Shown here: positions 8,883 through 64,000 of the stretch, one piece after another
Layout of the letters: every line of letters starts with the position of its first letter
How positions within the stretch are numbered: position 1 is the stretch's first letter
From: Malacoraja senta
Taxonomy: Eukaryota
Assembly: GCA_038087875.1 (NCBI GenBank)
Contig: CM075991.1
Span: 11,720,001 to 11,784,000 of the forward strand
Reading direction: 5' to 3'
Length of the DNA: 64,000 nt
The notes under the pieces: generated by a model
Told to the model about the DNA's origin: nothing
Database searches by the model: none
The model's input: only the letters and a program-made list of their open reading frames with translations
Program-made: the position numbers and the translations under genes

Positions 8883-9689
8883 AACCAGAAACAAACACAG
8901 TCAGTCAATGAGAAAAAATATGTACAAATCCAGAATCAACAAATTTGCCCCCTGGGTAGGTGAAATGTACCCCAGGTTGGGAACCCTTGCACTAGGGGGA
9001 TAGATTGGGCAAGTGCAGTCTTTAGGAGGTAGACAAAAATGCTGTAGGAACAAAGCGGGTGCAGCAGCATCTATGGAGCGAAGGAAATAGGCAACGTTTC
9101 GGGCCAAAACCCTTAAGGGAATAGGCAACCCTTAAGGAAATAACCCTTAAGGAAATAGGCAACGTTTCGGGCCGAAACCCTTAAGGATTTTGGCCCGAAA
9201 CGTTGCCTATTTCCTTCGCTCCATAGATGCTGCTGCACCGCACTGTATTTGATCCCCCCCCGCCGGCCTTAGAATAAAGGGGAGGTCATTTAAGACTGAG
9301 GTGAGAAAAAACTTTTTCACCCAGTGAGTTGTGAATTTCTGGAATTCCCTGCCACAGAGGGCAGTGGAGGCCAAATCACTAGATGGATTTAAGAGAGAGT
9401 TAGATAGAGCTCTAGTGGAGTCAGGGGATATGGGGAGAAGGCAGGCATGGGTTATTGATTGGGGACGATCAGCCATGATCACAATGACTCGAAGGGCCGA
9501 ATGGCCTCCTCCTGCACCTATCTTCTATGTTTCTATGTTTCTATGTTTCTATGTTTCCATTTCCTTCGCTCCATAGATGCTGCTGCACCCACTGAGTTTC
9601 TCCAGCATTTTTGTCCACCTTCCATTTTCCAGCATCTGCAGTTCCTTCTTCAACACTGCAGTGTTTAGGACATGGTTCACCGTCCCAGG

Positions 9690-21600: not shown

Positions 21601-24600
21601 GGACATGGGTCGCAGAGGTGACAGAAGGTAAATACACTCGCGTTCCTGCAAGTTTGAGAAACGTTTTTTTATCGGCAGGTTCAAAAGTTCATTAGTGATA
21701 GGACAGAAGTAGGCCATTTGGCCTATCAAGTCTACTCCGCCATTTAATCATGGCCAATCTATCTTTCCGTCTTAACCCCATTCTCCTGCCTTCTCCCCAT
21801 AACCCCTGGCACCCGTACTAATCATTTGGCGGTGGTTGTTTTTATTTGGGGTGGTTCCTCTTCAAGATAGGAGACTAAATTCATCCAGCTGTATTAGCTT
21901 TGGGGGTCACACACTTGGAAGTCCCAGCTCAAGTGGACTCAGTGCTGGCGGTGATCTCTCCTGCAGTGTGGGGCGAGGCAGTTGCGAGCCCCGTCTGATA
22001 CCAGGGTCAGGGCATCACCTAATGCTGTGACCAGTCTGGCTCTGAAAGTGAGCTCTCATTGTGCGTTGAGTATCAGTGTGAGTTCACACTCCATGTTGGA
22101 AGCCTGACTCTCGGGTCTGAGTGTGAGCTTTCAGCACGTCAGCAGGTTTCCATGTTTCTTCTTTCTCGGTATTGAGGAAAATGTCTTCCAGCTTGGGCAT
22201 GGCGTACTCTGGTTGTATTGGAGGCATTCCGCCTGATGTTGCTCGTGATCAATGTTGCCAATTATCTCTCGATGTTTACCCCTTGTTTATTCCCACACAG
22301 GGACAATTACAAGCGGATGGGCCAGGGCTCCCACAAAAGGTATCAGGATATGGCATCCGGGGAAGGGCCCGCCAAAAAGGCACGACATTACATTCCCTCC
22401 TACAATGTGCAGTACTCCCGCTTCTGCCTGGACAGGTACCAGCCCTTTCAATGCTTACATGCATGTTTTATAACCTCTGTCTTTCTGTATGAACTGTGCA
22501 GAACCAGCAGCCTGGTCGCTTCAGGCTCTACAGCTCGAGAGTGGTGGCTAAGATTGGCACCATGTCACTCATAAGTATTTGATGGTGCCAGAGCACTGGG
22601 CTGGCTGCTGTTCGCCTGAGTTGATGAGTGGTGTTGGCTGCCTGCTTGATTACTGAGGCATCAACGGACTGCCGTGCCATTTCTACTGCCCTTGTTTGCA
22701 AAGCTTAGTGACTTGAAATCCCAAATGTGCAATGGGACAGACTGTTCACCACCTTGTTGCATGGTAGCGAGACACATTGTCTGTGAACCGTTGTTGGGGC
22801 AAGTTGGGCTATGAATTCCTGTCGGGGCCACGGGTTTGGGTGTGATTGCTTGGATGCTCGCTGGGTGATGGAACGGATCGGAGTGAGTCACAGAGAAGTA
22901 GAATCTGTCTGTGATTCCCATAGCGGGGGGGGGGGGGGGGCAGGTGAGACTAGAACACTCACACACGTACAGTGGGGGGGGGTAGGGGAGGGGACACGCA
23001 CACAGGTAGGTCTGTGACTCCCCACGTGAGGTTAATCCAGGTTGATCAATCCTGTTTGTGGTCCCTCGCTATCCTGCTCTGGAGATTTGGAAAGCAGGCA
23101 AACCTGTACTGAGCTTTGTGTAAGAAAGAACTGCAGATGCTGAAAAAATCGAAGGTAGACACAAAATGCTGGAGTAATTCAGTGGGTGAGGCAGCATCTC
23201 TGGAGAGAAGGAATGTGTGACGTTTCGGGTCGAGACCCATTCCTTCTCTCCAGAGATGCTGCCTCACCCGCTGAGTTACTCGAGCATTTTGTGCCTACCT
23301 GTACTGAGCCTGTCGGCTTAATGACTTGCACCTATACATAGCAATGTTACAAAATTTTGAGCTTTTAAAAATAAAGTCTGCAATTTATCCCATCAGATAA
23401 AGCATAAAAAGAAGTTTAATTTGACACCTAATTCACTTTCATATCTTCAGTATTAAAGAAGTTATGGCCATTTTCATACTCGGAAATTAGCATCTTGTTC
23501 CCTATCGCTTTTCCATTGACTTAACACAAAAGCTGTGATCGAGGACAGTTAAAAGCCCATAACTTTCTTAATAATTAAGATAACTGAAAGAAATTTTCAG
23601 TTATTATAGATTGAAGCATTCTGAAACAAATATGAAACAATCTTACTTAGATGACATGAAAGTAAAGCATATAATTAGCTAGTTACCTAATTGTAGCTAA
23701 TTACAAAATTCAATTACTAGATCTAAACATCTATCAATTTCTTAAGAATAGATTAACATTTTTAAATAGCCTAAGTGTCCAAATAACATTCACACAATAA
23801 TTCACAATATAACATAATTTTAAAATCTCATTTTCATGAATTTACAGGCCAAATGGAAGGAATTGAATGTTTAATACCTGTAAATTAATGGACATTTAAA
23901 TCTTGTGAGTGAGGATTTCTGGAACGCGATCTTTTGGAACGTTCATTTGCGGTGAATTTAACCCCGTATTGGCATGAAAAATACTGCCGTTAGTTCGGGG
24001 AATAAAATCACCGTGTCGCGTGAAAAAATGTGAATTAAAGGCTTCTTAAGAAGCACTTTTATACATTTAAAGAAACCACTTTCGTTTACCTGTCCCGTGT
24101 GTGAAATCCGTCCCCGTTATCGGTGTTGACGCTTCAGGAGCTGCTTTTAAAATTACTCCAGCGCTGACATTGACGATTTAATAAAAAATAAAAAATTCAC
24201 AAAACGCCACTAGGAACGATTTTTCAGCAAAAGGTTGTACTCCAATGAAATATAATTCAGGACAAGGGAGGAGAAACCGTGTTTTAACCCCGCCCCCCCT
24301 TAAAGGCGCCAAAATCGCGCACACAGCCAGTGGCAGAATTACAGCGCGACTGAAGGTAAGTTTTGTAACATACCTACTATACATATTAAGTGCCATGGAA
24401 AGGACCAGTTGGCTGAGCAACACTGTCACCGGTCAATGGAGAATATCCTCAGTGACTCGCAGTATATTGACAGAATGTGCGTTGGAGATCCGCGGTGATG
24501 GATTGTCTGTGGCGTGTCCTCTGTACGTCCACGGTGATGGAATGTGAGTGTCAAATTAAGTCAAGAGTCTATTCGTCTGAAGAAGGGTCTCGACCCAAAA

Positions 24601-27600
24601 CATCACCCATTCCTTCTCTCCAGAGACACTGTCCCAGCGTTGTGTGTCTACGGAGTAAACCAGCATCTGCAATGCCTTCCTACACAATAATATTTTTTTA
24701 TTATCGTATGCCCTGAAACAGAACAATGAAATTCTTACTTGCAGCATCGCAACAGATTTATGATCATTGTCCTATAACAACAAGTAAAGTTTGGTATATA
24801 TATATATATTTTTTAAACAATAATAGTGCAAAAATAAAAACAATGCCTCCAAGTCTATGTAGTTTGCAGCTTATTTGGAGGTAGTAGTTAATAGCCTGAT
24901 GGTTGTAGGTGACAAATTGCCTGTTAACAGACTTAATATTAATGTGAACCCATTCCTTCTCGCCAGGGATGCTGCCTGTCCCGCTGAGTTACTCCAGCAT
25001 TTTGTGTCTACCTACCGCCCATTAACAGCCGGTCCTCTGCTTTTCCCTTTAGCGCTGCTTGTGATACCATTGAAGTGCAGCGACGCTACCCGTGCCTCAA
25101 CATCCCAGACACATTTTTCGATGGCAGACTGGGCTGGGTGAACACATTCCCATTGACCGAACCTTTTCAGTTAGGCCAGAAGTCTGTTTTCCACGTGATG
25201 GAGAAAGGGCTGGAACCAACTGAGGAACAAGATGATCAAATGGATCCTCCTGATGCCGACTCCACCTACAGTGCCAAGGTGAGCGGCAATGGGTGTTGTT
25301 TGGGATCAAACTGGTTTTGGAAGCAGTGCTATTTTTAAGGAACCTATCACTCTAATACTAACTCCACTGAATCAATTGTTTCGATTTCATTAAGTCGGTA
25401 CTAACCCATTCAACAGATTGAAGACTGAACATTTCAGATCATAGTGCGAGCCTAGATTTGGAAGTAAACTAATTTTCTTTCACATTCGATAGTAGTAGAC
25501 AGGGAAATATCTAAGGGTATTATTTAGATGGACTTCCATATGACATATGTAAAGTTCTGCAAAAGGAATTGTTAGTTAAAGTTGACATAACTGAAGATAA
25601 ACTTGATATGGTTAAAGATTTGCTTGAACAGCAGTGGTTAGAAATAGGCAGGTACTCAGTGGCAAAGTGTGACTGGAGGTGTCCAGAAAGTATGTTGGGC
25701 CATGGTTATCAGCTACAACATATAAATCACTGAGCTAATGGGACAGAAAGCCACATGTTCATCTACCGATAACCGTAGTTATGTCACGCTGAATGGTCAA
25801 AGTGACCAGGTGACATTTCCATTGTTCAGTCATTTTGTCATGTGATATAGAAACATAGAAAATAGGTGCAGGAGTTGGCCATTCGGCCCTTCAAGCCAGC
25901 ACCGCCATTCAATATGATCATGGTTGATCATCCAAAATCAGTATCTCGTTCCGGCTTTTCCCCCATATCCCTTGATTCCCTTATCCCTAAGAGCTAAATC
26001 TAACTCTCTCTTGAAAATATCCAGTGAATTGGCCTCCACTGCCTTCTGTGGCAGACAATTCCATGATTCACAACTCTCTGGGTGAAATGCTACTCTCCAG
26101 GGATTCCCAGCAATGAATGCAAGTTTAACTATTCTGGTTAAATACCCTGGCCTTTGCCCTCGTATTTCAGTAGCAGAATAATGAATGTAATTTTCCCATC
26201 CATGTGCATGGTTCCCAAGTCGAGAAAACTTGGAAAGATTGCATTTAGGGCAACTGTGGCAATCTCACCATTCTGTTCCATGGAGTTGCACATGCAGTCC
26301 CATCTCTCTGCTCCCACACATTGAGAGGTGCATTTACCCCCAGCAAATGAGCTTCAAAATTTACAGAATGGCCTTGCATAAAACCACATCTTTTCGGGGA
26401 GGACTTGAGATTGGGATCGTTACAGGTTACAGGAAGTTTTTTTGTTTTTTTTTCGTTTATTGTCACATGTACCGAGGTACAGTGAAAAGCTTTTGTTGCG
26501 TGCTAACTAGCCAGCGGAAAGACAATACATGATTATAATCGAGCCATTCGTACCAAGCCGAGAGTTAAGAGTGTGTAACTGTGCTGAAAGTTCTTCCTGG
26601 CTGCAGCTTAACTGGCCTGTAAACTCAAGACACATAGATAACACAGAACAGACACAAATTCAATAAACATGTTAGCACAGTTTGAAAGGTGAATGATCGA
26701 GTGATGTGATTCCAGTGGATTGTGTCTTATGGAGATGTACAGTGGCTTGCAAAAGTTTTCATACCCCTTGAACTTTTCCACATTTTGTCACGTTACAACC
26801 ACAAACGTAAATGTATTTTATTGGGATTTTATGTGATAGACCAACACAAAGTGGTGCATATTTGTGAAGTGGAAGGAAAATGATACATGGTTTTCAAATT
26901 TTTTTACAGATAAAAAACTGAAAAGTGTCGCGTGCAAAAGTATTCAGCCCCCCTGAGTCAATACTTTGTAGAACCAGCTTTGCACATCTAGAGACTGAAA
27001 TTTTTGCCCATTCTTCTTTGCAAAATAGCTCAAGCTCAGTCAAATTGGATGGAGAGCGTCTGTGAACAGCAATTTTCAAGTCTTGCCAGAGATTCTCAAT
27101 TGGATTTAGGTCTGGACTTTGACTGGGCCATTCTAACACATGAATGTGCTTTGATCTAAACCATTCCATTGTAGCTCTGGCTGTATGTTTAGGGCCGTTG
27201 TCCTGCTGGAAGGTGAACCTCCGCCCCAGTCTCAAGTCTTTTGCAGACTCTTAACAGGTTTTCTTCCAAGATTGCCCTGTATTTGGTTCCATCCATCTTC
27301 CCATCAACTCTGACCAGCTTCCCTGTCCCTGCTGAAGAAAAGCATCCCCACAGCATGATGCTGCCACCACCATGTTTCACAGTGGGGATGGTGTGTTCAG
27401 GGTGATGTGCAGTGTTAGGTTTCCGCCACACATAGCGTTTTGCATTTAGGCCAATTTTGGTCTCATCTGACCAGAGCACCTTCCTCCACATGTTTGCTGT
27501 GTCCCCCACATGGCTTGTGGCAAACTGCAAACGGGACTTCTTTTGGCTTTTTTTCAACAGTGGCTTTCTTCTTGCCACTCTTCCATAAAGGCCCGATTTG

Positions 27601-30600
27601 TGGAGTGCACGACTAATAGTTGTCCTGTGGACAGATTCTCCCACCTGAGCTGTGGATCTCTGCAGCTCCTCCAGAGTTACCATGGGCCTCTTGGCTGCTT
27701 CTCTGATCAATGCTCTCCTTGCCCGGCCTGTCAGTTTAGGTGGACGGCCATGTCTTGGTAGGTTTGCAGTTGTGCCATACTCTTTCCATTTTCGGATGAT
27801 GGATTGAACAGTGCTCCGTGAGATGTTCAAAGCTTGGGATATTTGTTTATAACCTAACCCTGCTTTAAACTTCTCCACAACTTTATCCCTGACCTGTCTG
27901 GTGTGTTCCTTGGGCTTCATGATGCTGTTTGTTCACTAATGTTCTCTAACAAACCTCTGAGGCCTTCACAGAACAGCTGTATTTATACTGAGATTAGATT
28001 ACACACAAGTGGACTCTATTTACTAATTAGGTGACTTCTGAAGGCAATTGGTTGCACTGAATTTTATTTAGGGGTATCAGAGTAAAGGGGGCTGAATTCT
28101 TTTGCACGCGACACTTTTCAGTTTTTTATTTGTAAAACAAATTGAAACCCATGTATCATTTTCCTTCCACTTCACAATTATGCGCCACTTTGTGTTGGTC
28201 TATCACATAAAATCCCAATAAAATACATTTACGTTTGTGGTTGTAACGTGACAAAATGTGGAAAAGTTCAAGGGGTATGAATACTTTTGCAAGCCACTGT
28301 AGTTGCTTGACTGCAGCTCTTTCACTGACATGTCCGCTCTACGCTTCAGGTGATACTGCTGTCCTGTCCAGACCTCTTGGACCTGTACCGCCAGACCTGC
28401 ACAATGGCTGAAGCACCCAAAGAACGGGCCGAGCCGGCTCAGCATGCCACAAAGCTGATTAAGGTAAGTTCCCGTGACAGGTCTTTGTAAAGCAGCTTCC
28501 CATTATTTCCCGCGATGGTAAACGCCTCTTTGCACTTGATTGATTCCTTCATTGAGCCCGTGGTGACGCTGCAGTAAGCAATGAGAATCAAACCACAGAC
28601 AACTCCAGCCGCCTTTCTCAGCTCATTCCTTCCACTTGTGCCTAGCCGCCAACAGTTACCCTTCTCCATCACGATCGGGCGCAGAGCTACCTCCACCCGC
28701 TTCTCCCCTCTCTCCACTTCGCTCCCCGGCCCCCGCGCTCCTGTTCTCTCTTTCCCCCTTTCCTACCTCCCACACTACTAGAAACCCCTCCCACTCCGAA
28801 CCGCCCTCGCTCATCTCCTCTGGTCTCTCGTGTTCTTTTGTACAGTTCTTGGTTGGGATGAAGGGCCAGGAGGAAGCGATGGCGATTGGGGGGAGTTGGT
28901 CTCCTTCTCTCGATGGTCCAGGCCCAGATAAGGACCCCAGGGTGCTGATCAAGACGGCCATTCGCACCACCAAGTTCCTGACTGGCATTGATTTGAGCGT
29001 CTGCACCCAATGGTGAGTCCCCCAATGCAGAGCGGGGTGGATGGGCGTGGATGCATGTGGACCCGATGGGTGCATAAACGGAAGCTTGCTGGAGAAAGAT
29101 GGTGGTTAGGGAGGGGAACAGTGCACCGTGTAAAACAGCAGGGGGGAGAGAGGTTAATCTTATTTCCTGGCAGACTTCATTGTTAGTTGGCGTGTTCTGG
29201 CACAGGCTCTGGAAACTTGGACCAGGGAAGGGGTTCTCTGCAGGAATAGTGGCACGGGTTGAGGAGATGCTCCAGTGAATGAGAAGGCATCTGTGGAGGC
29301 ACAGTGAGCCTGGATGTCCTTTGTCCCCTGCCTGGCCGGCAGCTGCAGTCTGGATCTGACGAGGGACAGCGCTGCCCAGGAGTGACGTGATGTTCAGAGC
29401 TACAGAGAGAGTCCGGCTCCAATATCTAGCTTGGTTACTTGGTGAATTGTTCCAATGTGCCCGCGTTGCACTGTACTTCTGGCTGCTGTAGTGTTGGTGC
29501 ACGTTGAGCTTCTGGGGCACCAAGAAATATTACTTTTAAGGGGCCTGTCCCACTTACGCGGTTTTTTTCGGCGACTGCCGACATGCCAGCAGTCGGCGAA
29601 AAAAATCACGTAAGTGGGACAGGCTCCTTAAGTGTCCCAGAACCCAGGAGCTTCCGTCACAGCCCACCGTGCAGGATCTCTCCGTGTACGGTGAAATACT
29701 ATTGCTAACCTGTTTGTTTCTGTTGGTTGAATGGATGCACTAATTCAGCCATCTGCCTGAGCGTTGTGCCAGAAAGGGGGAATGAGTTTCGGGCAGGAGT
29801 ACAGAATGCTGCCATTGTTTGCCTTGTAGAGTTAGCCTGACGGGTGCTTCTGTGGGGTGGGGTGGGATTTATACTTGGCCCTATCACGCTGGGGGTGATT
29901 AATGAAGGTGAGGATCCTGGGCCGAGGGGGCTTCTTTCTTCCCCCGTTGTCAACTCATGACTGAGTATCTATGGGAGGAAAAAAAGACCAAGTGCTGGAG
30001 TAACTCACCAGGTTGCACCATCTATGGATCACAGACATGAATAGGCGACGTTTTGGGTTGAGCCTCTTTCTCAGGCTGACGGTTCCCGACCCAAAATGCC
30101 ACCTGTTCATGTTCTCCAGAGATGCTGTCTGACACGCTGAGTTACTGCAGCACTCTGTGTGTCTTCTTTTGGATCCATCCTTGTATCCATCTACGGGAGG
30201 TTGACTTGACCTGGACTTGAGGAGACCGGTGCTTGGAATGGGTGAAGGATGCCTCCTGCTAGTTCTCGCCTCCTTTTGCAAAGTACCTTTTCCAATGGGG
30301 AATCTGGGATTGCGACTGTGCGAGGGTCAGAATGTGTTGGGGGGGGGGGGGGTATTTGAGGAGTGTGGGTGGCGCGTATCGTTGGACTGTAAGCTTTGGC
30401 GTTGGTTTTGCGATGCTGTGTGCTATTGTTTCCAGTAACCCTCTTCCCTTGTGACAGGTTTCGCTTTGCTGAGATCCGCTACCTTCATCCTGGAGAGCTC
30501 CGCGAGGGGCGGCTGCTCCCAGCCCGTGTGGAGACTGTGGTTGTATTTCTGCCGGATGTTTGGCATTGCCTCCCTACTCGCTTGGAGTGGGACGCACTGT

Positions 30601-30759: not shown

Positions 30760-33700
30760 CATATACAAACCTTCACACATACCTTCACTCACACACACAG
30801 ATACAAACTCTTTACCCCTCCACTGCCATAGCAAGAGTGACCGATAACTTTCAGTTCAAGTGAGCATTTGCCAAGATAGAATAACCACGAGACTATAAAA
30901 TGCTGTAGCAGGGAACTGCTGCAGAGCTGCTGGCACTCTTTATGAATGTGAACGGGACTCCACTAATGCACTGCCACGTCACAATTCCTTAAACAGAGAC
31001 GGGATGGGGGTAGTAGCAAAAGAGTCGGTGACTAGAATTGGTCATCACATAGTCTGGGGATTGGCCCACTGGTTGTTCAGGGTCAGTGTAGTTGTGGAGC
31101 TGGGTGTGGGAGGCACCAGCTCGTTCCCCAAATCACCCAGTTAACAACAACAAGCATCGGGCAGCTTGAGATCTGCGGTGAAGCCGGCTTCCAAGGCAGG
31201 GCAATATCTCCTGGACCATGTGTAGCAGCTTCTGGACCATCTCTAGCAGCTTCTGGACCATGTGTAGCAGCTTCTGGACCATGTGTAGCAGCTTCTGGAC
31301 CATGTGTAACAGCTTCTGGACCATGTCTAGCAGCTTCTTCACCATGTGTAGCAGCTTCTGGACCATGTGTAGCAGCTTCTGGACCATGTGTAGCAGCTTC
31401 TGGACCATGTGTAGCAGCTTCTGGACCATGTGTAGCAGCTTCTTCACCATGTGTAGCAGCTTCTGGACCATGTGTAGCAGCTTCTGGACCATGTGTAGCA
31501 GCTTCTGGACCATGTGTAGCAGCTTCTGGACCATGTGTAGCAGCTTCTTCACCATGTGTAGCAGCTTCTTCACCATGTGTAGCAGCTTCTGGACCATGTG
31601 TAGCAGCTTCTTCACCATGTGTAGCAGCTTCTGGACCATGTGTAGCAGCTTCTGGACCATGTGTAGCAGCTTCTTCACCATGTGTAGCAGCTTCTGGACC
31701 ATGTGTAGCAGCTTCTTCACCATGTGTAGCAGCTTCTGGACCATGTGTAGCAGCTTCTTCACCATGTGTAGCAGCTTCTGGACCATGTGTAGCAGCTTCT
31801 GGACCATGTGTAGCAGCTTCTTCACCATGTGTAGCAGCTTCTGGACCATGTGTAGCAGCTTCTGGACCATGTGTAGCAGCTTCTTCACCATGTGTAGCAG
31901 CTTCTGGACCATGTGTAGCAGCTTCTGGACCATGTGTAGCAGCTTCCTCACCATGTGTAGCAGCTTCTTCACCATGTGTAGCAGCTTCTTCACCATGTGT
32001 AGCAGCTTCTTCACCATGTGTAGCAGTGCCACAGGCTGAAGCCGTTTCCACACAGATACTCTGACTGTGGTTCCCCACAGCAAGCTTCAGCATAGATTGG
32101 CCTGAGCTTCCTCACTGGAGAATGGGGTGTGCGTCTGTATATCGACGCGGGTGATAACGACACAGCGTGTGCTCCGAGTGGGGAAATGAGATGTGCCTTT
32201 GGCCCCCCTGTCTGGTGACGAGACGGGTTAGTCTGTGGTCTCCCCACGGTGAAGGACATGTTCGCCGGCGATTCCCTTGCGGGTAATGGAACAAATCAGC
32301 CTGTGCTCCCTCACTGGGTGGTGGGTCTGTGGTCTCCTCACTGGGTGATAGGATGTGTGTGGGTGGTGATCTTTGTTAGGAGGTGAAATCTACCGTTGTC
32401 ATGGGCGCTACCGCTGCTGTGTATTAGAATGAAAAAGTATCCTGTGATACTTTTACCATGGAGTAATAAGTCACCCCTGAGGTAGTTGTGGTATTAGCTA
32501 ATAGTATGTTTATTCAATGCTTAATCTCTCTTGAACAAAACACAAAATGGCGGAAGAACTCGGCAGGTCAGGCTGTGAATAGATGGGGGTGACGTTTGCG
32601 GTTAGGTCCCTTCTGGAGATGATGTTTGGCATTGTGCCTGGGGTAACAATGGTTAGGTAAGTGGGGAACTGAAGCTGGGAAACAAAATCTCTGTTTAAAG
32701 AAATGTGACGGGGCCACACAGACCAAGACCACACTGGTGACGCATCAACACTTACACTCTGATTCTCTGACATCCTTTCACCCCAACTGAACACACTGTT
32801 TATGATGCATTGTTCCAGACAGTTTGCCGTTCCTTCCCCTGACGGGCTCACATGAACTCCCACGTGTTGCGTATTCTGGTTTCCGTCCAATACTCGTCTC
32901 ATTCCCATTCCCATATTTGACGAACCTATACCACAATGACAGCTCCCTCTAGGCGATTCCTGCCCCTCACAGTGTGTCCTTTCAGGCCCGAGGCTTTAAT
33001 GCTGGAGCAGCTATAGAATTAAAGTGCAGCTAGGCCTGTCCTTTAAAGCAGTCACAGCAAGAGCAGGCCTCCATCTTGTGGGTTGGTGATCTGTTCACTT
33101 CCTGGCATGGGGACCCTTGGATGGTCTAACTTCTGCTGGCTGAATCCATGCGTGTTTATCACCGGGTCATGAAAAGCAGGCCCTATGGCTGTTTTCGGGC
33201 TCATTGATATACTTGTCGAGCTAAGACGGGCTGGTGTCATAGAGATATCCAGAACTGCCAGTTCCGAACACTGGACATAACCTGCAAAATGCTCTACCCC
33301 AAGACTACTATAACCCAACATTATACAACGATAAAGCTGCACACATCCTACCCTCGCACAGCTCTGAACCTCAGTGTTATATAGGAACAAGCCAATGTGA
33401 CCAGTACTTTGTCCCAGTGTCGTACAGTAATAGACCTGTTCCCACCATCACCTTGCACCAATGTTAAACTGTATAAGTAACACAGGCACTATTGCCAAGA
33501 ATTGTCAGTGGGCAGACCTTTATCCATCTGTACTGTACCCAATGTGACATCAGGTACCCCCATGTAGGGCTGTACAGCCATTACTGTATCTCAGTGTAAG
33601 CTTCTACCCATTAACAATCTGCCCAAGGAATTAGTCCAGAGTTAGCCATCATAATATGCCCCACATTAAATCTCCTGTTTATCCTGGGTTCAGGCTCAGT

Positions 33701-36700: not shown

Positions 36701-39312
36701 GTGAAACCAAGCCTGAGGTAGAGCGGTGTGAGAAAGAACTGCAGATGCTGGATAAAATCGAAGGTGGACACCAAATGCTGGAGTAACTCAGCAGGTGAGA
36801 CACAAGAGTTTAGTTGGGGACGCCGTCTCCACGCGTTTGCGCAGTGGGCCCGGTATCCGTGCGTCACTGGGTCATTCTAGGTCATTTGGAATTCTATTTC
36901 ACGGGGAAAGATTGTTGAGGTGTGGAATCACTGGTGGAGTATGAGATTTACCTTGCTGTAAAAGGCAGCTAGCCCGGGTAAAATCGTTTTTTCCTGGTCG
37001 ATACAGAACCAAGCATATTAAGGCCGTGGTGTGACGGGTTCCACTATCTTTCCAGGTGGAAGATTTCCGCAGGGAGCTGAAAGCAAGGAATATGAACTGG
37101 AAAGGCACAAAGGCTCAGCTTGTGAGTCGGCTGGAGAAGGAGCTGGAGGAGGAGACAGCTAAAGAGGAGATAGAGAAAGATGAATCTCCAACCAAGGAGG
37201 CAGAGTCGGTTGTGACTCCAGAGCAGAGTCCTGATGAGGAGCAGAAGCAGGTGAGACAACTTGGGCCAATAAGCCCAATCATAGGCTGCAAATGGCACAA
37301 AACACGCGATGTGCTGAGGGAGCTGCAGCTGTCAAGCAGATGCGATAGGAAGGTGCAAGGCAGGGAATTCAACTCAAACCTGTTATTTTGGGATTATGGG
37401 AGGCTGAGTTGAGGCACTGTCTTCCTAAGAGTTGAAACTGGGGATGTTTGGGTTTGTTTGAAGTTGGGTCAGATCAACCTGATTAAGATGGGATCCTGGC
37501 TTTATATGGACATGGAATAGAAAAGCAGGATGTTATGGTGAAGCTTTAAAAAATCCTGTTTGGACTCGGTATCTAATGCAGAGAAGGCCTTGGGCGAGAG
37601 GGGGAGGGTTTCAGAGACAATGGCAAAATAGTCCAGAGATGAGACTTTTGCTCCGCCATTCAGTAACATGGTGGCTGATCTGATGGGTAGCTCGGTTGCA
37701 CATTCCTGCCTCTCCTCAGTAACCTGAATCACCCCTGTACCACTGGCTGCTGCTGTGCGGTGTTAAACTGTTGTCTGTTGTGCTGTGCAGGATGCCGAGG
37801 AGAAGCAGCCTGAAGAAGCCCCTGCTGCTCCAAAAGTGGAGCCTCGATGCCCCCTGCCAGCCGAGCCTGCGGTGATTGTGACCCCCAACGTCGCCGCCAT
37901 GGGGGGCAACTTTGGATGTGCCGTACTGTCGCTGAGTAACCTGAGGAGCTACCGCATTGATTCCAAGGGCCATTCCTTTGAGGTACGTGTTGGTAGATTG
38001 TCATCTCGCCTGCAACGTAACAGGTTTACAAATGTTATTTCCATGCCTTATGATGATGTTAGCGCCTATACTGATCAGGTACTTAGAGATGCAGCGTTGG
38101 AACAGGCCCACCCAGTACATGCCAACCATCATCTTCTGTGTTATCCCATTTCGTCAACCAGTCCTTACACAGTAGAGCTACTGTACAATAGCTAATAATA
38201 CACCAGGACACATTAACACACGAGTAAAGCACGTCCTTGCACACTAGTAAAACACGTACAATAGGTCATAATACACTAATACACACTAACACACTAGTAG
38301 AACCAGTTCTTGCACACTTCTGTGTTATCCCATTTTCTCAACCAGTCAAAAGACAATAGGTGCAGCAGTAGGCCATTCGGCCCTTTGAGCCAGCACCGCC
38401 ATTCAATGTGATCTTGGCTGATCATCCCCAATCAGTACCCCGTTCCTGCCTTCTCCCCATATCCCCTGACCTCTATTTTTAAGAGCCTATCTAGCTCTCT
38501 CTTGAAAGCATCCAGAGAACCTGCTTCCATCGCCCTCTGAGGCAGAGAATTCCACAGACTCACCGCTCTCTGTGAGAAAAAGTGTTTCCTCGTCTCCGTT
38601 CTAAATGGCTTACTCCTTATTCTTAAACTGTGGCCCCTGGTTCTGGACTCCCCCAACATCGGGAACATGTTTCCTGCCTCTAGCGTGTCCAAGCCCTTAA
38701 CAATCTTATATGTTTCAATGAGATCTCTCATCCTTCTAAACTCCAGAGTGTATAAGCTCCATTCTCTCAGCATTACACACTAGATCGATTGTACAATAGG
38801 TAATAATGTACTAGTAGCCACTAATACACACTAACATACTAGTAGAACCAGTCTTTGCGCACTAGTACAATAGGCAATTGTGCGGTTGCCAGTTAAGCTA
38901 CCAAGCCGCATGTGTGTGGGATGTGGGAGAGACCCCGTGGCGGTGGGTGGTGTGCGTTAGTTTGGTGACGGGGTTCTGGTTTTCCCTTCAGGTCCTGTGG
39001 CTGGCTGAGATATTCAGTGAGATGCTGCAGAGAGACTTTGGTTACGCCATCTACAGCGCCCTGCTGGCCTACCCAGAGAAGAAACCAGAGGAGGTCCCGG
39101 AGAAGCCGAAGGCAGCCACTGGCGGTCAGGATCAGGAACAAAAGGATCAGGACATGGAGCAAGATGAGAAGCCGAAAGAAGCCAAGGTCGAGGGGGAGGA
39201 GATGGAGAACGCGGAGTTGAAGGACACAGAGGAGGCGAAGGAGTCGGGCGATACCCTGGCTAAAACCACAGCCATGGAAGAGGATGACAACTGGGAATGG
39301 GAGCTGACAAAG
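12588..39312 (+). CDS. CCAR2: CCAR2/DBC1-like cell cycle and apoptosis regulator (spliced, 15 coding exons, 3' end truncated at assembly gap)
   Basis: Exons 12588-12624, 13994-14064, 16990-17099, 17676-17790, 19026-19161, 21504-21627, 22301-22435, 25053-25278, 28350-28463, 28846-29012, 30458-30668 (or -30859), 36057-36141, 37056-37250, 37791-37982, 38992-39312. AG/GT sites and phases chain correctly except around 30668/36057. Motifs: S1-like [27 protein letters not shown]2-type [12 protein letters not shown] and AKKARH, Nudix-like [36 protein letters not shown], and [16 protein letters not shown]-hand and coiled-coil exons are not in the window. Confidence 0.9.
13994..14064 (+). CDS. CCAR2: CCAR2 exon ([24 protein letters not shown])
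   Basis: ttctctag|...cag|gtaacg; SLLGP motif of the CCAR N-terminus. Confidence 0.8.
14705..14915. repeat. Fold-back (palindromic) Penelope-type short repeat, representative copy
   Basis: gtagacaaaaatgctggagaaactcagcggg... followed by its reverse complement; many related whole or half copies across the window (e.g. 9030-9245, 13770-13965, 23120-23300, 34230-34370, 44790-44965, 59455-59650). Confidence 0.8.
16990..17099 (+). CDS. CCAR2: CCAR2 exon, S1-like domain part 1
   Basis: [28 protein letters not shown]; ggcag|...AA|gtaagt. Confidence 0.92.
17676..17790 (+). CDS. CCAR2: CCAR2 exon, S1-like domain part 2
   Basis: [29 protein letters not shown]; ttgcag|...cag|gtacag. Confidence 0.92.
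18503..18852. mobile_element. hAT (Charlie-like) MITE
   Basis: TIRs CAGGGGTGTCAAACT / AGTTTGACACCCCTG; subterminal ccggcccgc motifs; degenerate 8-bp TSD (gtttaaac / cggtaaac). Confidence 0.85.
19026..19161 (+). CDS. CCAR2: CCAR2 exon
   Basis: [18 protein letters not shown]; ttgcag|...C|gtgagt. Confidence 0.88.
21504..21627 (+). CDS. CCAR2: CCAR2 exon
   Basis: [23 protein letters not shown]..; ttccag|...AG|gtaaat; phases 1/2 fit neighbours. Confidence 0.8.
22301..22435 (+). CDS. CCAR2: CCAR2 exon (NLS-like region)
   Basis: [23 protein letters not shown]; cacacag|...AG|gtacca. Confidence 0.88.
23339..24376. mobile_element. Non-autonomous TIR element (TAG...CTA), copy 1
   Basis: Imperfect TIRs TAGCAATGTTACAAAA / TTTTGTAACATACCTA; flanked by CTATACA direct repeats; homologous end to end, in inverted orientation, to 62811-63851. 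Confidence 0.9.
25053..25278 (+). CDS. CCAR2: CCAR2 exon
   Basis: [37 protein letters not shown]; ctttag|...aag|gtgagc. Confidence 0.92.
26740..28299 (-). mobile_element. Tc1-family (DD34E) DNA transposon, near full length, disrupted transposase
   Basis: TA duplication (26738-39, 28300-01); ~215-bp IR/DR-type TIRs starting CAGTGGCTTGCAAAAG; transposase split over ORFs 27189-27920 and 26894-27235 with [19 protein letters not shown] and SPDLNPIEN; one frameshift and small deletions. Confidence 0.97.
28350..28463 (+). CDS. CCAR2: CCAR2 exon
   Basis: [25 protein letters not shown]; cttcag|...aag|gtaagt. Confidence 0.9.
28846..29012 (+). CDS. CCAR2: CCAR2 exon, Nudix-like DBC1 domain
   Basis: [34 protein letters not shown]; tacag|...TG|gtgagt. 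Confidence 0.93.
29540..29627. mobile_element. 88-bp hairpin MITE, PIF/Harbinger-like ends
   Basis: Near-perfect palindrome GGGGCCTGTCCCACTTACG...CGTAAGTGGGACAGGCTCC with TTAA on both sides. Confidence 0.8.
30458..30668 (+). CDS. CCAR2: CCAR2 exon, Nudix-like DBC1 domain (3' boundary uncertain)
   Basis: [36 protein letters not shown]; no GT at the expected end, GC at 30669 or GT at 30860. Confidence 0.8.
30702..30800. repeat. (CA)n-rich microsatellite
   Basis: Direct reading. Confidence 0.9.
31212..32026. repeat. 21-bp minisatellite, ~38-39 copies, two interleaved variants
   Basis: ccatgtgtagcagcttctgga / ccatgtgtagcagcttcttca. Confidence 0.98.
36057..36141 (+). CDS. CCAR2: CCAR2 exon, start of SAP domain (85 nt, apparent 1-nt excess)
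   Basis: tcgcag|...AAA|gtaaga; PTPTQWS in one frame, LDLKSMK in the next. Confidence 0.75.
37056..37250 (+). CDS. CCAR2: CCAR2 exon, SAP domain plus acidic linker
   Basis: [30 protein letters not shown]; ttccag|...cag|gtgaga. Confidence 0.9.
37791..37982 (+). CDS. CCAR2: CCAR2 exon
   Basis: [31 protein letters not shown]; gtgcag|...gag|gtacgt. Confidence 0.9.
38352..38755 (-). mobile_element. CR1-clade LINE 3' end
   Basis: [39 protein letters not shown]. Confidence 0.9.
38992..39312 (+). CDS. CCAR2: CCAR2 exon (last one before gap)
   Basis: [30 protein letters not shown]..; cttcag|...aag|gtatgt. Confidence 0.9.
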
Positions 39313-39578
39313 GTATGTCCCGTGGGAAAGGGGAATCAGAAAGGGGGTTGGGAGGAACTGCAGATGCATGTTTACACCGATGATGGACACAAAATGCTGG
39401 AGTGACTCGGGGTCAGGCAGCATCTCTGGAGAAAGGGAATAGGTGACATTTTGGGTCGAGACCCTTCTTCAGATAGGGTGATAGGGCCCACCCTAACCAC
39501 TGGCCGCTGTCAATGGTCCTGGTGAATCCTAACGTCCAGGGCTTGGCCCACAGCCACCCTTGCGTGGGCAAGTGTTTG

Positions 39579-47000: not shown

Positions 47001-50000
47001 CATACTGACCCGCACACTAACGCTATCCTACACAGTGTGCGGGTCAGTGGTCGGTGCGGACTCGGTGGGCCGAAGGGCCTGTTTCCGCGCTGCATCTCTA
47101 AAAACTAAAACTAAGAAACTAAAACTCCACCCTGAATTCTACAAAACACTGGAGTAACTCAGCAGGTTACTCCAGCACAAGGTCTAATCCAACAGCTACA
47201 GTTCCACGTGACCACATTGAATTCTACAAACTGGGGTAGCTCAGTTTCCATGGGTCTGTGTCAAAGTTCAAATTTACTTGCCCGTTGGTGAGGCAGGAGG
47301 AAGTGCAGGCAGTGGCGGACTGGCCAGGGTGTCAGCTTGCCCGATGGCAAGTGGGCCCCCTATATCAAGTGGGGCCCCCTATATCAAGTGGGCCCCTGAT
47401 GAAGTGGGCCCCATATCAAGTGGGCCCCTGATGAAGTGGGCCCCCTATATCAAGTGGGCCCCTGATGAAGTGGGCCCCCTATATCAAGTGGGCCCCCTAT
47501 ATCAAGTGGGCCCCTGATGAAGTGGGCCCCTTATATCAAGTGGGCCCCTGATGAAGTGGGCCCCCTATATCAAGTGGGCCCCTGATGAAGTGGGCCCCCT
47601 ATATCAAGTGGGCCCCCTATATCAAGTGGGCCCCTGATGAAGTGGGCCCCCCTTTGCCTCCTGGCAACCAATATTTTTAGACCCAGTCCGCCACTGAGTG
47701 CAGGTGCTGGTATCGTCACAAAGTGCTGGAGGAACTCAGCGGGTCAGGCAGCATGTAGGTAGGGAACAAACAGGTGATATTTTGGTCGGGAGGATCCGCC
47801 TGTGATTTTGGTTTGGATTGTTGTGCATGTTTCTGATGTGCTCGGGCTAAACCTGCCTGGCTTGTCCTTCTGCTCTGCATTGCACAACATTCACATTCTT
47901 TTGTTCTTTTGTCTCTGTTCTTGCCTTAAAATGGCTCCGTTCGCTCATTGACCAGGTGACTCTGTTTACAGTTACTTCCCTCCCCGTGGTCACCATGGTT
48001 TTGTGCCATCGGACCCTTCTGGCAGCCTAACGAGTTCCTCTTGTCTCCCTCCCAGTTCTGATGAAGGGCCTCGGACCGGGGAATGTTGCCTCTGATGTAA
48101 TTAAACCAGAAAATGCAGGAAATACTCAGCAGGTCAGGCATCATTTGTGGGGAGGGAAATCATGAATGTTTCAGGTTGATACTGAATCTGGGAACAAACT
48201 GAGTAAATGTAGTTTAGTTTAGAGTTACTGTGTGGAAACAGGCCCTTCGGCCCACCGAGTCCGTGCCGACCAGCGATCCCTGCACACTAACTCGATCCTA
48301 CACACACTAGGGACAGTTTACACATACACCAAGCCAATTAACCTACAAACCTGCACATCTTTGGAGTGTGGAGGAAATCGAAGATCTCGGAGAAAACCCA
48401 CACAGGTCACGGGGAGAACGTACAAACTCCGCATAGACAGCACCGTAGTCGGTCTCCGGTGTTGTAAGACAGCAACTCTACTGCTGCGTCATCGTACTGT
48501 TAGTGTGGAGACTAACAATGGACAAGGACTACTGTACTTGTTGCATCTACAGTGCATGTTCTTTATAATCTTATGCTGCTGTGGTAATATCACCATTCCA
48601 TTTTGCAGATCCTGAGAATGAAACGGTGCAGGGAGCAGACCCAGCGTTGGTAAGTACACGGTCGAAGAAGGGTCTCGACCCGAACTGTCGCCCATTCCTG
48701 CTCTCCAGCGCCTGACCCGCTGTGTTACTCCAGCACTTTGTGTCCTTTTGTATAAACCAGCATCTGCAGCCCCTTGTTTCTATACTTTGGCTTTGCCCTA
48801 TAATTGTCTGGCTACCACGCATTAGCGCAGGTGGAGAGTTGCTGCCTTACAGCGCCAGAGACCGGGGTTCGGTCCTGACTACGGGTGCCGTCTGCACAGA
48901 ATTTGTACATTCTCCCTGTGATCATGTGGGTTTTCTCCAGGTGCTCTGGTTTTCTCCCACACTCCAATGACATGCAGGTTTGTAGGTTAATTGGCTTTGG
49001 TAAAGTTGTAAACATTGTGCCTGCTGATAGTGTTAGTGTACGGGCATCGCTGGCTGGTGTGATCCGGTGGGCCGAAGTGCTTGTTTCCAACCTCGACCCA
49101 GGAATGAGTAGGTTAACCTATGGTGAGCGTTAGTCGGCACTGGGCCTGTACTCATTGGAGTTTAGAAGAATGAGGCGGCGGGGGGGGGGGGGAGGGGGGG
49201 GGGGGGGGGACGGGACGACGACCTCAATGAAACATACAGAATAGTGAAAGGCTTGAATAGAGTCGATGTGGGGAGGGTGTTTCCACTAGTGGGAGAGTCT
49301 AAAACTAGAGGTCATAGCCTCAGAATTAAAGGACATTCTTTTAGGAAGGAGACTAGGAGAAATGTCTTCAGTCAGAGGGTGGTGAATCTGTGGAATTGTT
49401 TGCCACAGAATGCTGTGGAGGCCAAGTCAGTGGATATTTGTAAGGCAGAGATAGATAGATTCTTGATTAGTACGGGTGTCAGGGGTTATGGGGAGAAGGC
49501 AGGAGGATGGGGTTAGGAGGGAGAGATAAATCAGCCATGATTTGATGGGCCGAATGGCCTAATTCTGCTCCTATCACTTATGACCTTACCCTGACCTGTC
49601 CTAAACCCTTGGTGTACATCAGCAAGTGATACTGATCTGAGATCCTCCATCTCTTCCAGGTAAATGATAATCACTTGGGCACAAGTGGAAGAGGAGGAAC
49701 TTCTTTGGACACTTCTGGCCACAATGCGGACAATGACGATTCTGAGGAGATGACTTTACTTGTAAATAAGCCTGAAGCATCACCTGAAGACCGAGCTAGA
49801 GCATGTGACCAAGGCCCGTGTCAAGGCAGGATTGTTGACCTGCCATTAGACCAAGGGGATAACTCTTTGATTGGACAAAATGGACTGAGTAGCTCCAGAG
49901 ATCTTGCTTGTGTTCTCAACGTCACCTCACTGTGTAACTGTGGAGCCACGGGCAACGAGACGGGCGGAGCTAGCAACACGAAGTGCTCCGCTGGAATTAC

Positions 50001-61982: not shown

Positions 61983-62810
61983 TTGATTCATGTGTGTATA
62001 TATTTATAGAATGCCTTGTAGTCAATGATAGATATTTATTTGTTGTCATTTGAACCTAAGTTCAAACGAAATTCTGTTTCTGCAGTCATACAAACAAATA
62101 AAAGAACCAAGACACAACACAATTTACACAAACATCGATCACAGTGAATCTCCTCCTCACTGTGATGGAAGGCAAAGTCTTATCTCTCCCCTGCACTCCA
62201 CATTCTCCTCCCGATGTCAAAGTCAAAGCCCCCGGCGGGCGATTGCAGACATGTCCCGCGGCCATTAAAGCCGCGCCGGGCGATGCAAGGCCACGCTCCG
62301 GGTCTTGATGTTGTAGCCCCCGGTAGCGCCAGCAAGTCCCACAGCCACCAATGCCGCGCCGGGCGATGCCAGACCCCGCTCCAGGTCATCCCCAACCCCG
62401 CAACTCGGGCGGGAGTAGCTGCCGTTGCGGGAGCCCCGAAAAGCGGTCTCCCACCATGGACCCACGAGCTCCCGATGTCACCGTCCACCAGACCTGCGGC
62501 TGGAGCCTCCGAATCTCCGGGGTCGGGTAGCAGCAGCTCCTCCTGCTCCGAACTCGGCCAGCTCCGCGATGGCGAGTAGTCCGCAGGCTCCGCGACTGGA
62601 GCCCCAGGTCGTTCCGGTTGGAGGCCGCTCCACGGTGCTAGGCCCCAACGACAACGGAGACCCGACAGAGAAAGGTCGGGTCTCCCGTGCAGGGAAAAGA
62701 TTTTAAAAGTTTCCCCACCCCCACCCAATGCCTACTATGTTCTGTGTGCTGAAGCAAAGCAAGACTTTCATTGTCCTATCAGGGACTCATGACAATAAAC
62801 TCACTTGAAC

Positions 62811-63851
62811 TAGGTATGTTACAATACTTGCCTTCAGCGGCGCTGTAATTCTGTCACTGGCCGTGTGTGCGATTTTGGCGCCTTTAAGGGGGGGCGGGGT
62901 TAAAGCGCGGGTTTCTCCTCCCTTGTCCTGAATTATACTTTGTTGGAGTACCAGCTTCTCTGGAAGAAGCGTTCCGAGTGCCGTTTTGCGTAGTTTGTTT
63001 TAAAAATCTCCCAACAAGTTCAGCGTTGGAATCATTTTTAAATCATCTTCTGAAGCGTCAACGCCAACAACGGGGACGGATTTCACACAAGGGAAAGGTA
63101 AACGAAAGTGCTTTATGTTAATGTATAAACGTTCTCCTTAAGTGACCTTTAATTCACATTTTTACATGCGACACGGTGATTTTATTCCCCGAATTAACGG
63201 CAGTATTTTTCATGCCAATACGGGGTTAAATTCACCGCAAATGAACGTTCCAAAAGATCGCGTTCCAGAAATCCTCACTCGCAAGATGAATTAAATCCCC
63301 ATTAATTTACAGGTATTAAACATTCAATTCCTTCCATTTGGCCTGTAAATTCATGAAAATTAGATTTAAAAATTATGTTATATTGTGAATTATTGTGTGA
63401 ATGTTATTTGGACACTTAGGCTATTTAAAAATGTTAATCTATTCTTAAGAAATTGATAGATGTTTAGATCTAGTAATTGAATTTTGTAATTAGCTACAAT
63501 TAGGTAACTAACTAATTATATGCTTTGCTTTCATGTCTTCGAAGTAAGATTGTTTCATATTTGTTTCAGAATGTTTCAATCTATAATAACTGAAAATTTC
63601 TTTCGGTTATCATAATTTTTAAGAAAGTTATGGGCTTTTAACTGTCCTCGATCACAGCTTTTGTGTTAAGTCAATGGAAAAGCAATAGGGAACTAGATGC
63701 TAATTTCTGAGTATGATAATGGCCATAGCTTTTTTAATACTGACGATATGAAAGTGAATTAGGTGTCAAATTAAACTTCTTTTTATGCTTTATCTGATGG
63801 GATAAATTGCAGACTTTATTTTTAAAATCTCAAACATTTGTAACATTGCTA
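62811..63851. mobile_element. Non-autonomous TIR element (TAG...CTA), copy 2
   Basis: Reverse-complement homolog of 23339-24376; flanked by a 35-bp direct repeat (62776-62810 and 63852-63886). Confidence 0.9.
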
Positions 63852-64000
63852 CTATCAGGGACTCATGACAATAAACTCACTTGAACTTGAGATTATTATA
63901 TCAATCAATGCCCCCTTGTATTTGCCGCCATAAATAAACCTCACACATTGATCTCTATCCACCCTTGTGCCCCCCCTGCTCTTCCCCCCGCAGGTCTCTC

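What the first reader, a model, noticed from the sequence alone, without database searches (positions are those of the whole stretch)
62776..63886. TIR element family with very different target duplications: 35 bp here, 7 bp in the other copy
Seen: two ~1.04-kb copies (23339-24376 and, inverted, 62811-63851) share the same imperfect TIRs, TAG(C/G)(A/T)ATGTTACAA, with exact TAG...CTA ends. Copy 2 is flanked by a perfect 35-bp direct repeat, CTATCAGGGACTCATGACAATAAACTCACTTGAAC. Copy 1 is flanked by CTATACA (7 bp; 9 bp if the terminal TA is assigned to the target). Both duplications begin with CTAT on the top strand although the elements are in opposite orientations. Established: eukaryotic cut-and-paste superfamilies make short, nearly fixed TSDs (e.g. 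hAT 8 bp, Tc1 TA, Mutator 9-11 bp); long variable duplications are known mainly from some bacterial IS such as IS1634/IS1549 types. Inference: this may be a non-autonomous member of a poorly described DNA transposon with uncoupled or sequential strand transfer and a CTA(T) target preference. With only two copies, the 35-bp repeat could be a one-off repair product.
Basis: partly seen in the sequence, partly recalled or inferred. Interest (0 to 1): 0.75.

Follow-up and report, generated by a model that had tools for sequence, protein, structure and literature searches.

The report
Fish transposon with uneven target duplications
A very common, gene-less 1-kb jumping element in what looks like a ray or skate genome leaves target duplications of 7 and 35 bases (and probably 31 in another species) instead of one fixed length, which hints that its two ends are not inserted in one concerted step, though only three insertions could be examined.

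Summary
In detail: two copies (23339-24376, and inverted 62811-63851; 91% alike) with 14-bp imperfect TIRs, TAG...CTA ends, and exact flanking repeats of 7 and 35 bp, both starting CTAT. Public contigs from 4 runs (3 organisms) show a very high-copy family with these ends. Copy 2 sits in the 3' end of an abundant retroposon-like repeat whose other copies carry the 35-mer once, so the duplication was not pre-existing. One head-to-tail joint in another organism has a 31-nt spacer that also begins CTAT; another has 1 nt. Against a strict CTAT rule: the few flank groups shown mostly do not start CTAT. No coding trace, no transposase, no family assignment; Repbase/Dfam and the host genome were unavailable. 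Best reading (0.5): a non-autonomous TIR transposon whose first end is joined at a preferred C^CTAT site and whose second end is joined 7-35 bp away, giving variable duplications. Main rival (0.3): an ordinary 7-10-bp family (hAT- or AcademH-like) with rare long duplications. Variable duplications within one family are known (IS481EU, IS1549/IS1634, Replitron-1), but my searches found none in a vertebrate TIR family.

The parts
62811..63851 (-). Copy 2 of the non-autonomous TIR element, 1041 bp, no coding trace
   Evidence: ends supported by mixed flanks leaving at 62811 and 63851/63852 in public contigs
62811..62824 (+). TIR of copy 2, end reading TAGGTATGTTACAA
63838..63851 (-). TIR of copy 2, end reading TAGCAATGTTACAA; its 3' CTA is joined to CTAT
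62776..62810 (+). 35-bp duplication, left copy (36 bp if the T at 62811 is counted)
63852..63886 (+). 35-bp duplication, right copy, exact
62726..62810 (+). Target of copy 2: 3' end of a high-copy retroposon-like repeat (AATAAA, CTTGAA-unit tail), 5' part; the tail resumes at 63887-63890
   Evidence: summed depth 0.5-3.6 million at 62734-62777 in 4 of 4 runs, loose ends at 62726/62727/62745, tail continuations behind 62811 and 63890; diverged paralogue at 24697-24740. The label retroposon is inferred from the anatomy
63887..63890 (+). Remainder of the repeat's tail after the duplication
   Evidence: 63 contigs of run X1 leave the stretch behind 63890 with further tail units
23339..24376 (+). 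Copy 1 of the element, 1038 bp
23332..23338 (+). 7-bp duplication CTATACA, left copy (8 or 9 bp if T or TA of the element's start is counted)
24377..24383 (+). 7-bp duplication, right copy; here the TAGGTATG-type end is the one joined to CTAT

Best explanation
A high-copy, non-autonomous TIR DNA transposon (about 1.04 kb, 14-bp imperfect TIRs, TAG...CTA) mobilised in trans by an unidentified transposase, most likely of the DDE type (inferred). Shown: exact ends, no coding trace, either end can be the one joined to CTAT, duplications of 7 and 35 bp at intact insertions. Inferred mechanism: the two strand transfers are not locked at a fixed stagger. One 3'-CTA end attacks the target just 5' of a preferred CTAT (both window targets read C^CTAT, which resembles the element's own CCTA end); the second end is joined to the opposite strand 7 to about 35 bp away, either by the transposase after looping or sliding, or by host end joining at 1-2 nt of shared sequence; gap filling then gives a duplication of variable length that always begins at the preferred site. 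The CTAT preference is probably a bias, not a rule.
For: Exact 7- and 35-bp repeats, both starting CTAT, with the element in opposite orientations. The target repeat family has one 35-mer followed by its tail: 17 contigs in X17 and 63 in X1 continue with tail units, and none of the 24 loose-end rows shown continues with a second 35-mer. A head-to-tail joint in run X1 (another organism) runs from 63855 back to 62811 with 27 letters between, that is a 31-nt spacer starting CTAT (table 5c); its last 15 letters equal window 42608-42594 (-), part of another retroposon-like 3' region, so it is target-like DNA. Head-to-tail spacers of DNA transposons usually are the TSD (bioRxiv 10.1101/158386, passages). 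Three of three spacers of 4 nt or more share the first four letters: p about 1e-4 after the fact. Neither of the 2 head-to-tail joints shown has a 7-10-nt spacer. At the non-CTAT junction both window copies share 1-2 nt with the target (p about 0.025-0.08). A textbook 8-bp-TSD element and a TA-flanked Tc1 element in the same window keep clean standard TSDs, so long duplications are not a feature of the region.
Against: Only three cases; copy 2 was picked for its oddity and table 5c can only show spacers up to 40 nt. The CTAT of the X1 joint is read from the aligned coordinates, not printed, the joint comes from one run at 85% likeness, and its side length is not shown. Loose-end groups do not fit a strict CTAT rule: X1, 46 contigs leave after C only; X18, 29 leave with a first letter other than C; X19, 85 at the other end give a consensus CTTT on the joined strand at agreement 0.36; no group at 63855 is among the 24 rows shown of 1437. 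Copy 1 also fits a fixed 7-, 8- or 9-bp TSD with 0-2 nt lost. Fixed-stagger integrases do leave rare long duplications: 8 table rows over 10 bp among 451 putative HERV-K TSDs (PMC5488345, passages). The 1-nt spacer in X19 fits no TSD reading without a deletion. No transposase was found.
Confidence: 0.5

Rival explanations
1. An ordinary TIR family with a fixed short TSD (hAT-like 7-8 bp, or AcademH-like 9-10 bp) and a CT-led target preference. Copy 1 is a normal insertion (7 bp, or 8-9 bp with 1-2 nt lost at a TA-rich junction); copy 2 and the 31-nt spacer are rare one-ended insertions finished by host repair.
For: Copy 1 reads as 8 or 9 bp when T or TA is given to the target. The ends match the Ac/Ds TIR at positions 1-3 and 6-8 (Ac/Ds TIR from PMC3260210); TIR length fits hAT's 10-25 bp (PMC3942097); hAT lineages with 5, 6 and 7 bp exist (PMC12730594). 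Rare long TSDs occur with fixed-stagger integrases. TSD deletion at dimer junctions is common (24 of 36 hobo dimers), which would cover the 1-nt spacer.
Against: Needs two independent rare events among three usable cases, both led by CTAT, and for 8 or 9 bp a further deletion in copy 1. None of the three far ends starts CTAT (TGTA, GTTC, CAAT), where a symmetric transpososome with a strong half-site preference would show it at both ends. No 7-10-nt spacer among the 2 head-to-tail joints shown (18 rows of table 5c hidden). Position 5 of the TIR is A or T, not the G of Ac/Ds.
Confidence: 0.3
2. The long repeat is not a TSD of one event: two copies inserted about 30 bp apart on sister or homologous chromosomes (local hopping, or a hot spot in the retroposon tail), and unequal exchange between them left one element with the intervening DNA on both sides.
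For: The family is very abundant; the X1 joint shows two element ends 31 nt apart in retroposon-like DNA, which is also what neighbouring insertions would look like. Pseudo-TSD models of this kind are discussed for HERV-K.
Against: Needs three events at one locus; should give deletions as often as duplications; does not explain why the far end lacks the CTAT seen at the near end in 3 of 3 cases.
Confidence: 0.1
3. The duplication was made by retroposon machinery: either the element was retrotransposed by target-primed reverse transcription, or the second 35-mer is a separate, 5'-truncated retroposon insertion that landed at the element's end.
For: The 35-mer is a retroposon-like 3' end with tail; variable TSDs are the hallmark of target-primed reverse transcription (PMC7805219, passage); X1 also shows a retroposon tail joined to the inside of the element (63890 to 63615, depth 369).
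Against: Both TIRs are complete, there is no tail on the element, either end can be the CTAT-joined one, and copy 1 shows the same CTAT start outside any matched repeat. The left 35-mer has its tail cut short and the right one carries it on, as expected of one interrupted copy.
Confidence: 0.07
4. An assembly error duplicated 35 bp around a repeat.
For: No listed public contig spans the locus; the window has a 200-N gap elsewhere.
Against: Both junctions are base-exact at the family's ends; a similar CTAT-led spacer appears in another organism's run.
Confidence: 0.03

Closest known systems
IS481EU (parabasalids) and the prokaryotic IS481/IS1202 groups (PMC10045372; parts 2 and 3 of 5, introduction and passages read)
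   Same: Short TIRs, non-autonomous members, several TSD lengths within one eukaryotic family (4, 5, 15 and 24 bp among 11 copies of IS481EU-7_TV); mechanism open.
   Different: Termini TNT..AYA, not TAG..CTA; lengths step by about 10 bp (4, 15, 25), whereas 7, 31 and 35 do not share one ladder; described only from parabasalids; no one-sided motif reported in the parts read.
IS1549 and IS1634 (PMC2266710, passages)
   Same: TIR elements giving long, variable direct repeats (8-514 bp); no mechanistic model at the time of that paper.
   Different: Bacterial; IS1634-family ends begin with C; autonomous.
Replitron-1 and Replitron-N1 of Chlamydomonas (bioRxiv 10.1101/2022.12.15.520654 and PMC9977147, passages)
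   Same: Variable TSD anchored at a short target motif (RG) at one end only.
   Different: HUH transposase, direct terminal repeats, orientation-specific insertion, one fuzzy end; here the ends are inverted repeats, exact, and either can face the motif.
hAT superfamily MITEs (Ac/Ds type; PMC3260210, PMC3942097, PMC12730594, passages)
   Same: About 1 kb, short TIRs, ends with TAG-NN-ATG; copy 1 can be read as 7 or 8 bp.
   Different: Fixed TSD per lineage; TIR position 5 differs from Ac/Ds; 35 and 31 bp unexplained.
Academ (AcademX, AcademH)
   Same: TSD length differs with accessory enzymes: 9-10 bp with helicase, 3-4 bp with nuclease (as cited in PMC10045372); TAG-type ends are recalled, from no call; copy 1 can be read as 9 bp.
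   Different: Each lineage has a fixed short TSD; the primary paper was not held, so termini were not compared.
IS3EU/GingerRoot (PMC10045372, PMC6839031, PMC12730594, passages)
   Same: TA..TA termini; present in fish; not separated from IS481EU in phylogeny.
   Different: 6-bp TSD (72 of 77 GingerRoot copies; 7-8 bp in 6); TIRs over 30 bp or 100-150 bp; TAYGG ends in the fungal IS3EU.

Membership tests
Non-autonomous TIR DNA transposon (MITE-like) | Dispersed high-copy repeat with TIRs, exact ends, flanking duplication, no coding capacity | tested here: met
   no codon pattern in substitutions; 0 of 14 element frames reach a Pfam cut-off
hAT | Fixed 8-bp TSD (5-7 bp in named sublineages) | tested here: inconclusive
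   Copy 1 is 7 bp, or 8 bp with one T lost; copy 2 is 35 bp; family distribution not obtained
hAT | TIRs of 10-25 bp | tested here: met
   14-19 bp against PMC3942097; weak, shared with many superfamilies
hAT | Ac/Ds-like terminal motif | tested here: inconclusive
   Positions 1-3 and 6-8 agree with the Ac/Ds TIR in PMC3260210; position 5 does not, at either end; only one reference TIR compared
hAT | hAT transposase in an autonomous partner | not testable with these tools
   No host genome; no copy in metagenome or viral collections
Academ (AcademX/AcademH) | TSD of 3-4 bp (X) or 9-10 bp (H) | tested here: inconclusive
   3-4 bp not met; 9 bp only if TA was lost in copy 1; 35 bp not met
Academ (AcademX/AcademH) | Terminal signature and transposase with nuclease or helicase | not testable with these tools
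   Paper not held; no Repbase or Dfam; no autonomous copy
IS3EU/GingerRoot | TA..TA termini | tested here: met
   two letters only
IS3EU/GingerRoot | 6-bp TSD, TIRs over 30 bp, TAYGG ends | tested here: not met
   7 and 35 bp, 14-bp TIRs, TAG ends
IS481EU | TNT..AYA termini | tested here: not met
   TAG..CTA
IS481EU | TSD lengths near 4, 15 and 25 bp, about one helical turn apart | tested here: not met
   7, 35 and a probable 31; 35 alone would extend the ladder
Replitron | Direct terminal repeats and orientation-specific insertion | tested here: not met
   Inverted repeats; opposite ends face CTAT in the two copies
Non-LTR retroposon (LINE/SINE) | 3' simple-repeat or poly(A) tail, ragged 5' end, no TIRs | tested here: not met
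   Both ends exact and inverted; no tRNA or Rfam match in the window
IS1549/IS1634 type | Long variable direct repeats | tested here: inconclusive
   Works like it in 3 cases; ends differ and the host is a eukaryote

The most novel reading that the evidence does not exclude
An unclassified vertebrate TIR transposon lineage, abundant in several related cartilaginous fishes, whose transposase integrates asymmetrically as a matter of course: one end is placed at a C^CTAT site that mimics the element's own end, the other at a freely variable distance (7 to at least 35 bp), with either end able to lead. Its autonomous partner would encode a new or accessory-equipped transposase, a vertebrate counterpart of IS1549/IS1634 and IS481EU.
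Probability: 0.35. Interest if true: 0.8.

Novelty: new variant of a known kind. Interest (0 to 1): 0.55.

Why it matters
TSD length is one of the main characters used to classify gene-less DNA transposons, and it is thought to be fixed by the geometry of the transpososome. How IS1549, IS1634 and IS481EU make long or multiple TSD lengths is stated to be unexplained in the papers read (PMC2266710, PMC10045372). A family with very many genomic insertions in several sequenced fishes would give a large natural data set (length spectrum, sequence logos at each end, junction microhomology) that could separate looping, sliding and one-ended insertion with repair by computation alone. It would also mean that such elements are missed by annotation tools that demand a fixed short TSD.

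Tried and rejected
No host genome is held, so the decisive table of all copies could not be made. Pattern scans for other copies found 0 in metagenome contigs (left-end pattern; internal pattern) and 0 in viral contigs. The search for sequencing runs listed 22 runs from 9 coded organisms at word shares 0.23-0.60; only 4 runs of 3 organisms were laid, and the query held other repeats, so the other 18 rows are not evidence of the element. No joint showing an empty orthologous site was among the 15 of 51 joints shown; this says nothing either way. Coding remnants: substitutions are even across codon positions, Pfam gives nothing at cut-off for 14 element frames, and a protein search with the frame that reads through one end, meant to tabulate flank codons, found no candidate among proteins of 66-210 residues. 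Rfam and ARAGORN: 0 hits. A scan of the window for other TIR pairs with long flanking repeats gave 190 rows; apart from two tandem arrays, copy 2 was the only one with a repeat over 8 bp. No subterminal repeat array was found. Literature: 10 searches; the TIR 12-mers gave 1 unrelated paper; chondrichthyan and variable-TSD searches gave no description of this family; the AcademH paper was not held. Earlier findings of this scan: nothing alike by sequence, place or words; 2 unrelated notes. Rejected readings: a TA-target Tc1/mariner element inside a pre-existing duplication (the target repeat has no TA before CTAT); a pre-existing tandem 35-mer; Crypton (no TIRs).

Full report
Observation. Copy 1 (23339-24376, +, 1038 bp) and copy 2 (62811-63851, -, 1041 bp) are 91.2% identical and are the only copies in the window. 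Identity is 93-98% over the first 700 columns and falls to 67% in columns 801-900. The four ends carry TAG(C/G)(A/T)ATGTTACAA, 12 of 14 positions complementary. Exact direct repeats of 7 bp and 35 bp abut the ends; they lengthen to 8-9 and 36 bp if the element's first T or TA is given to the target. Both begin CTAT on the top strand, and in both the base before is C. Because the copies are inverted, a different end of the element is joined to CTAT in each. An exact 7-bp match at that spacing arose in 0.0165% of 200,000 random placements; the shared four-letter start has p about 0.015 after the fact.

Setting. The window is eukaryotic and repeat-rich, with exons matching the LAIKA domain. The repeats look to me like those of a skate, ray or other cartilaginous fish; that label is recalled and comes from no call. 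No host genome is held.

It is a high-copy family with exact ends. I laid 4 of 22 listed runs (3 coded organisms, 3 studies; all assembled contigs) on 62690-64000 at 85% likeness. Summed depth over 63306-63833 is 0.4-5.5 million in all four, against 0-46 in the flank at 63922-64000. The tool warns that this is no copy number, but a gap of four to five orders of magnitude means very many copies. Contigs leave the element with mixed flanks at 62811 (X19, 85 contigs, agreement 0.36), 63851 (X18, 29, 0.43) and 63852 (X1, 46, 0.39), so TAG and CTA belong to the element. The section 62950-63260 is thinly covered in two organisms, so the middle varies between subfamilies while the ends are shared. 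There is no coding trace: substitutions are even across codon positions, 0 of 14 element frames reach a Pfam cut-off, and a protein search found no candidate.

The target of copy 2 is itself a repeat. Depth at 62734-62777 is 0.5-3.6 million, loose ends pile up at 62726, 62727 and 62745, and contigs that match the 35-mer go on with further CTTGAA units (17 contigs behind 62811 in X17, 63 behind 63890 in X1). With its AATAAA and short-unit tail this is the 3' end of a retroposon-like repeat (inference); a diverged paralogue lies at 24697-24740. The family carries the 35-mer once; none of the 24 loose-end rows shown, of 1437, continues with a second copy. In the window the tail is cut after the left 35-mer and resumes after the right one. 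This is the family state, not the orthologous empty allele, which was not seen among the 15 of 51 joints shown.

A third case. Table 5c (12 of 30 rows shown) has two joints that run from the element's right end back to its left end. In X1 the joint is 63855 to 62811 with 27 letters between (depth 131): element end, CTAT, 27 letters, element start, a 31-nt spacer. Its last 15 letters equal window 42608-42594 on the minus strand, in the 3' region of another retroposon-like repeat. In Drosophila, head-to-tail dimers of DNA transposons mostly hold the TSD as spacer (bioRxiv 10.1101/158386, passages); a 31-bp TSD at a single copy could also close such a path in a word graph. Either way it points to a 31-bp duplication starting CTAT; two independent insertions 31 bp apart remain possible. 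Three of three sharing the start has p about 1e-4 after the fact. Caveats: one run, side length not shown, and the CTAT is read from aligned coordinates. The second joint (X19, 63851 to 62811) has a single letter between the ends; deleted TSDs are common at such junctions (24 of 36 hobo dimers), or ends may be joined directly.

Results against a strict CTAT rule. If one end of every insertion faced CTAT, flanks leaving at 63855 should be among the largest groups, and half of the flanks at 62811 should end ATAG. No 63855 row is shown; X1 lists 46 contigs with C but not CT, X18 lists 29 without C, and the X19 consensus at 62811 reads CTTT on the joined strand. The rule by which rows are kept is not transparent and 1413 are hidden, so this weakens but does not exclude a preference. 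I read CTAT as a bias, perhaps strongest in the asymmetric events.

Mechanism. Shown: TIR element, exact ends, either end can face CTAT, duplications of 7 and 35 bp. Inferred: a transposase supplied in trans joins one 3'-CTA end 5' of a preferred CTAT, and the second end is joined to the other strand at a variable distance, by the transposase on looped or slid DNA or by host end joining. The far junction shares TA (copy 1) and T (copy 2) with the target, a weak hint of end joining (p 0.025-0.08). The far ends start TGTA, GTTC and CAAT, so the preference is one-sided, which a symmetric fixed-stagger complex does not predict. I put this at 0.5. The main rival (0.3) is an ordinary 7-10-bp family with rare one-ended events: copy 1 fits 7, 8 or 9 bp, the ends agree with the Ac/Ds TIR at six of the first eight positions (PMC3260210), 7-bp hAT lineages exist (PMC12730594), and HERV-K shows 8 table rows over 10 bp among 451 putative TSDs (PMC5488345). 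The two readings share the chemistry of copy 2 and differ in how often it happens. Exchange between neighbouring insertions (0.1), a retroposon-made duplication (0.07) and assembly error (0.03) are less likely. As an internal control, an 8-bp-TSD element at 47310-47696 and a TA-flanked Tc1 element at 26740-28299 have clean standard TSDs, and copy 2 is the only TIR pair outside tandem arrays with a flanking repeat over 8 bp.

Comparison with known systems. It works most like IS1549/IS1634 (8-514 bp, no model; PMC2266710), IS481EU (4, 15, 25 bp within a family; PMC10045372) and, for the one-sided anchor, Replitron-1 (bioRxiv 10.1101/2022.12.15.520654; PMC9977147). Other variable cases seen: CRe Helitron2, 7-19 bp (PMC3627910) and KDZ2/3, 4-8 bp (PMC12810828). 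It fails the membership tests for IS481EU (termini, ladder), Replitron (direct repeats, orientation), IS3EU/GingerRoot (6 bp, TIR length) and non-LTR elements; hAT and Academ are open. Of all these papers I saw matched passages or named parts, not whole texts, and no supplements; consensus files there, and Repbase or Dfam entries, may already hold this family. The AcademH paper was not held. Ten paper searches, including the TIR 12-mers and chondrichthyan and variable-TSD terms, found no description of it, in a library that lacks most subscription journals.

Verdict. A real, abundant, unclassified non-autonomous TIR family with at least one and probably two long duplications among three usable insertions. 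New variant of a known kind; interest 0.55. One genome-wide table of TSDs would settle it.

Noticed in passing
window 47310-47696: 387-bp element with 14/14 TIRs starting CAG, an exact 8-bp TSD and an internal 16-18-bp tandem array: a textbook hAT-type MITE (family label from anatomy).
   Followed up: partly
window 26740-28299: Tc1-type element with TA on both sides and a 247-aa frame matching Tc3/Sleeping Beauty transposase domains.
   Followed up: partly
window 31130-32050: About 0.9-kb tandem array of a 21-bp unit, open in several frames.
   Followed up: no
window 37767-39405: Exons matching the LAIKA domain, split over two frames; a CCAR1/CCAR2-type gene by recall.
   Followed up: no
run X1, joint 63890 to 63615: A retroposon-like tail joined through 10 letters to the inside of the TIR element at depth 369, several times single-copy depth: perhaps a subfamily that carries a retroposon fragment.
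   Followed up: no
run X19, joint 63851 to 62811: Two element ends joined head to tail with one base between (depth 100): a tandem dimer with deleted TSD, or an integrated end-to-end junction.
   Followed up: no
window 62950-63260 (element columns about 700-900): The two copies are only 67-85% alike here against 93-98% elsewhere, with many transversions, and two other organisms barely cover it: a swapped or subfamily-specific segment.
   Followed up: partly
window 5634-59673, many places: An abundant short repeat that often occurs as inverted pairs forming 150-230-bp palindromes, e.g. 6372-6595, 9058-9239, 14705-14882, 23151-23301.
   Followed up: no
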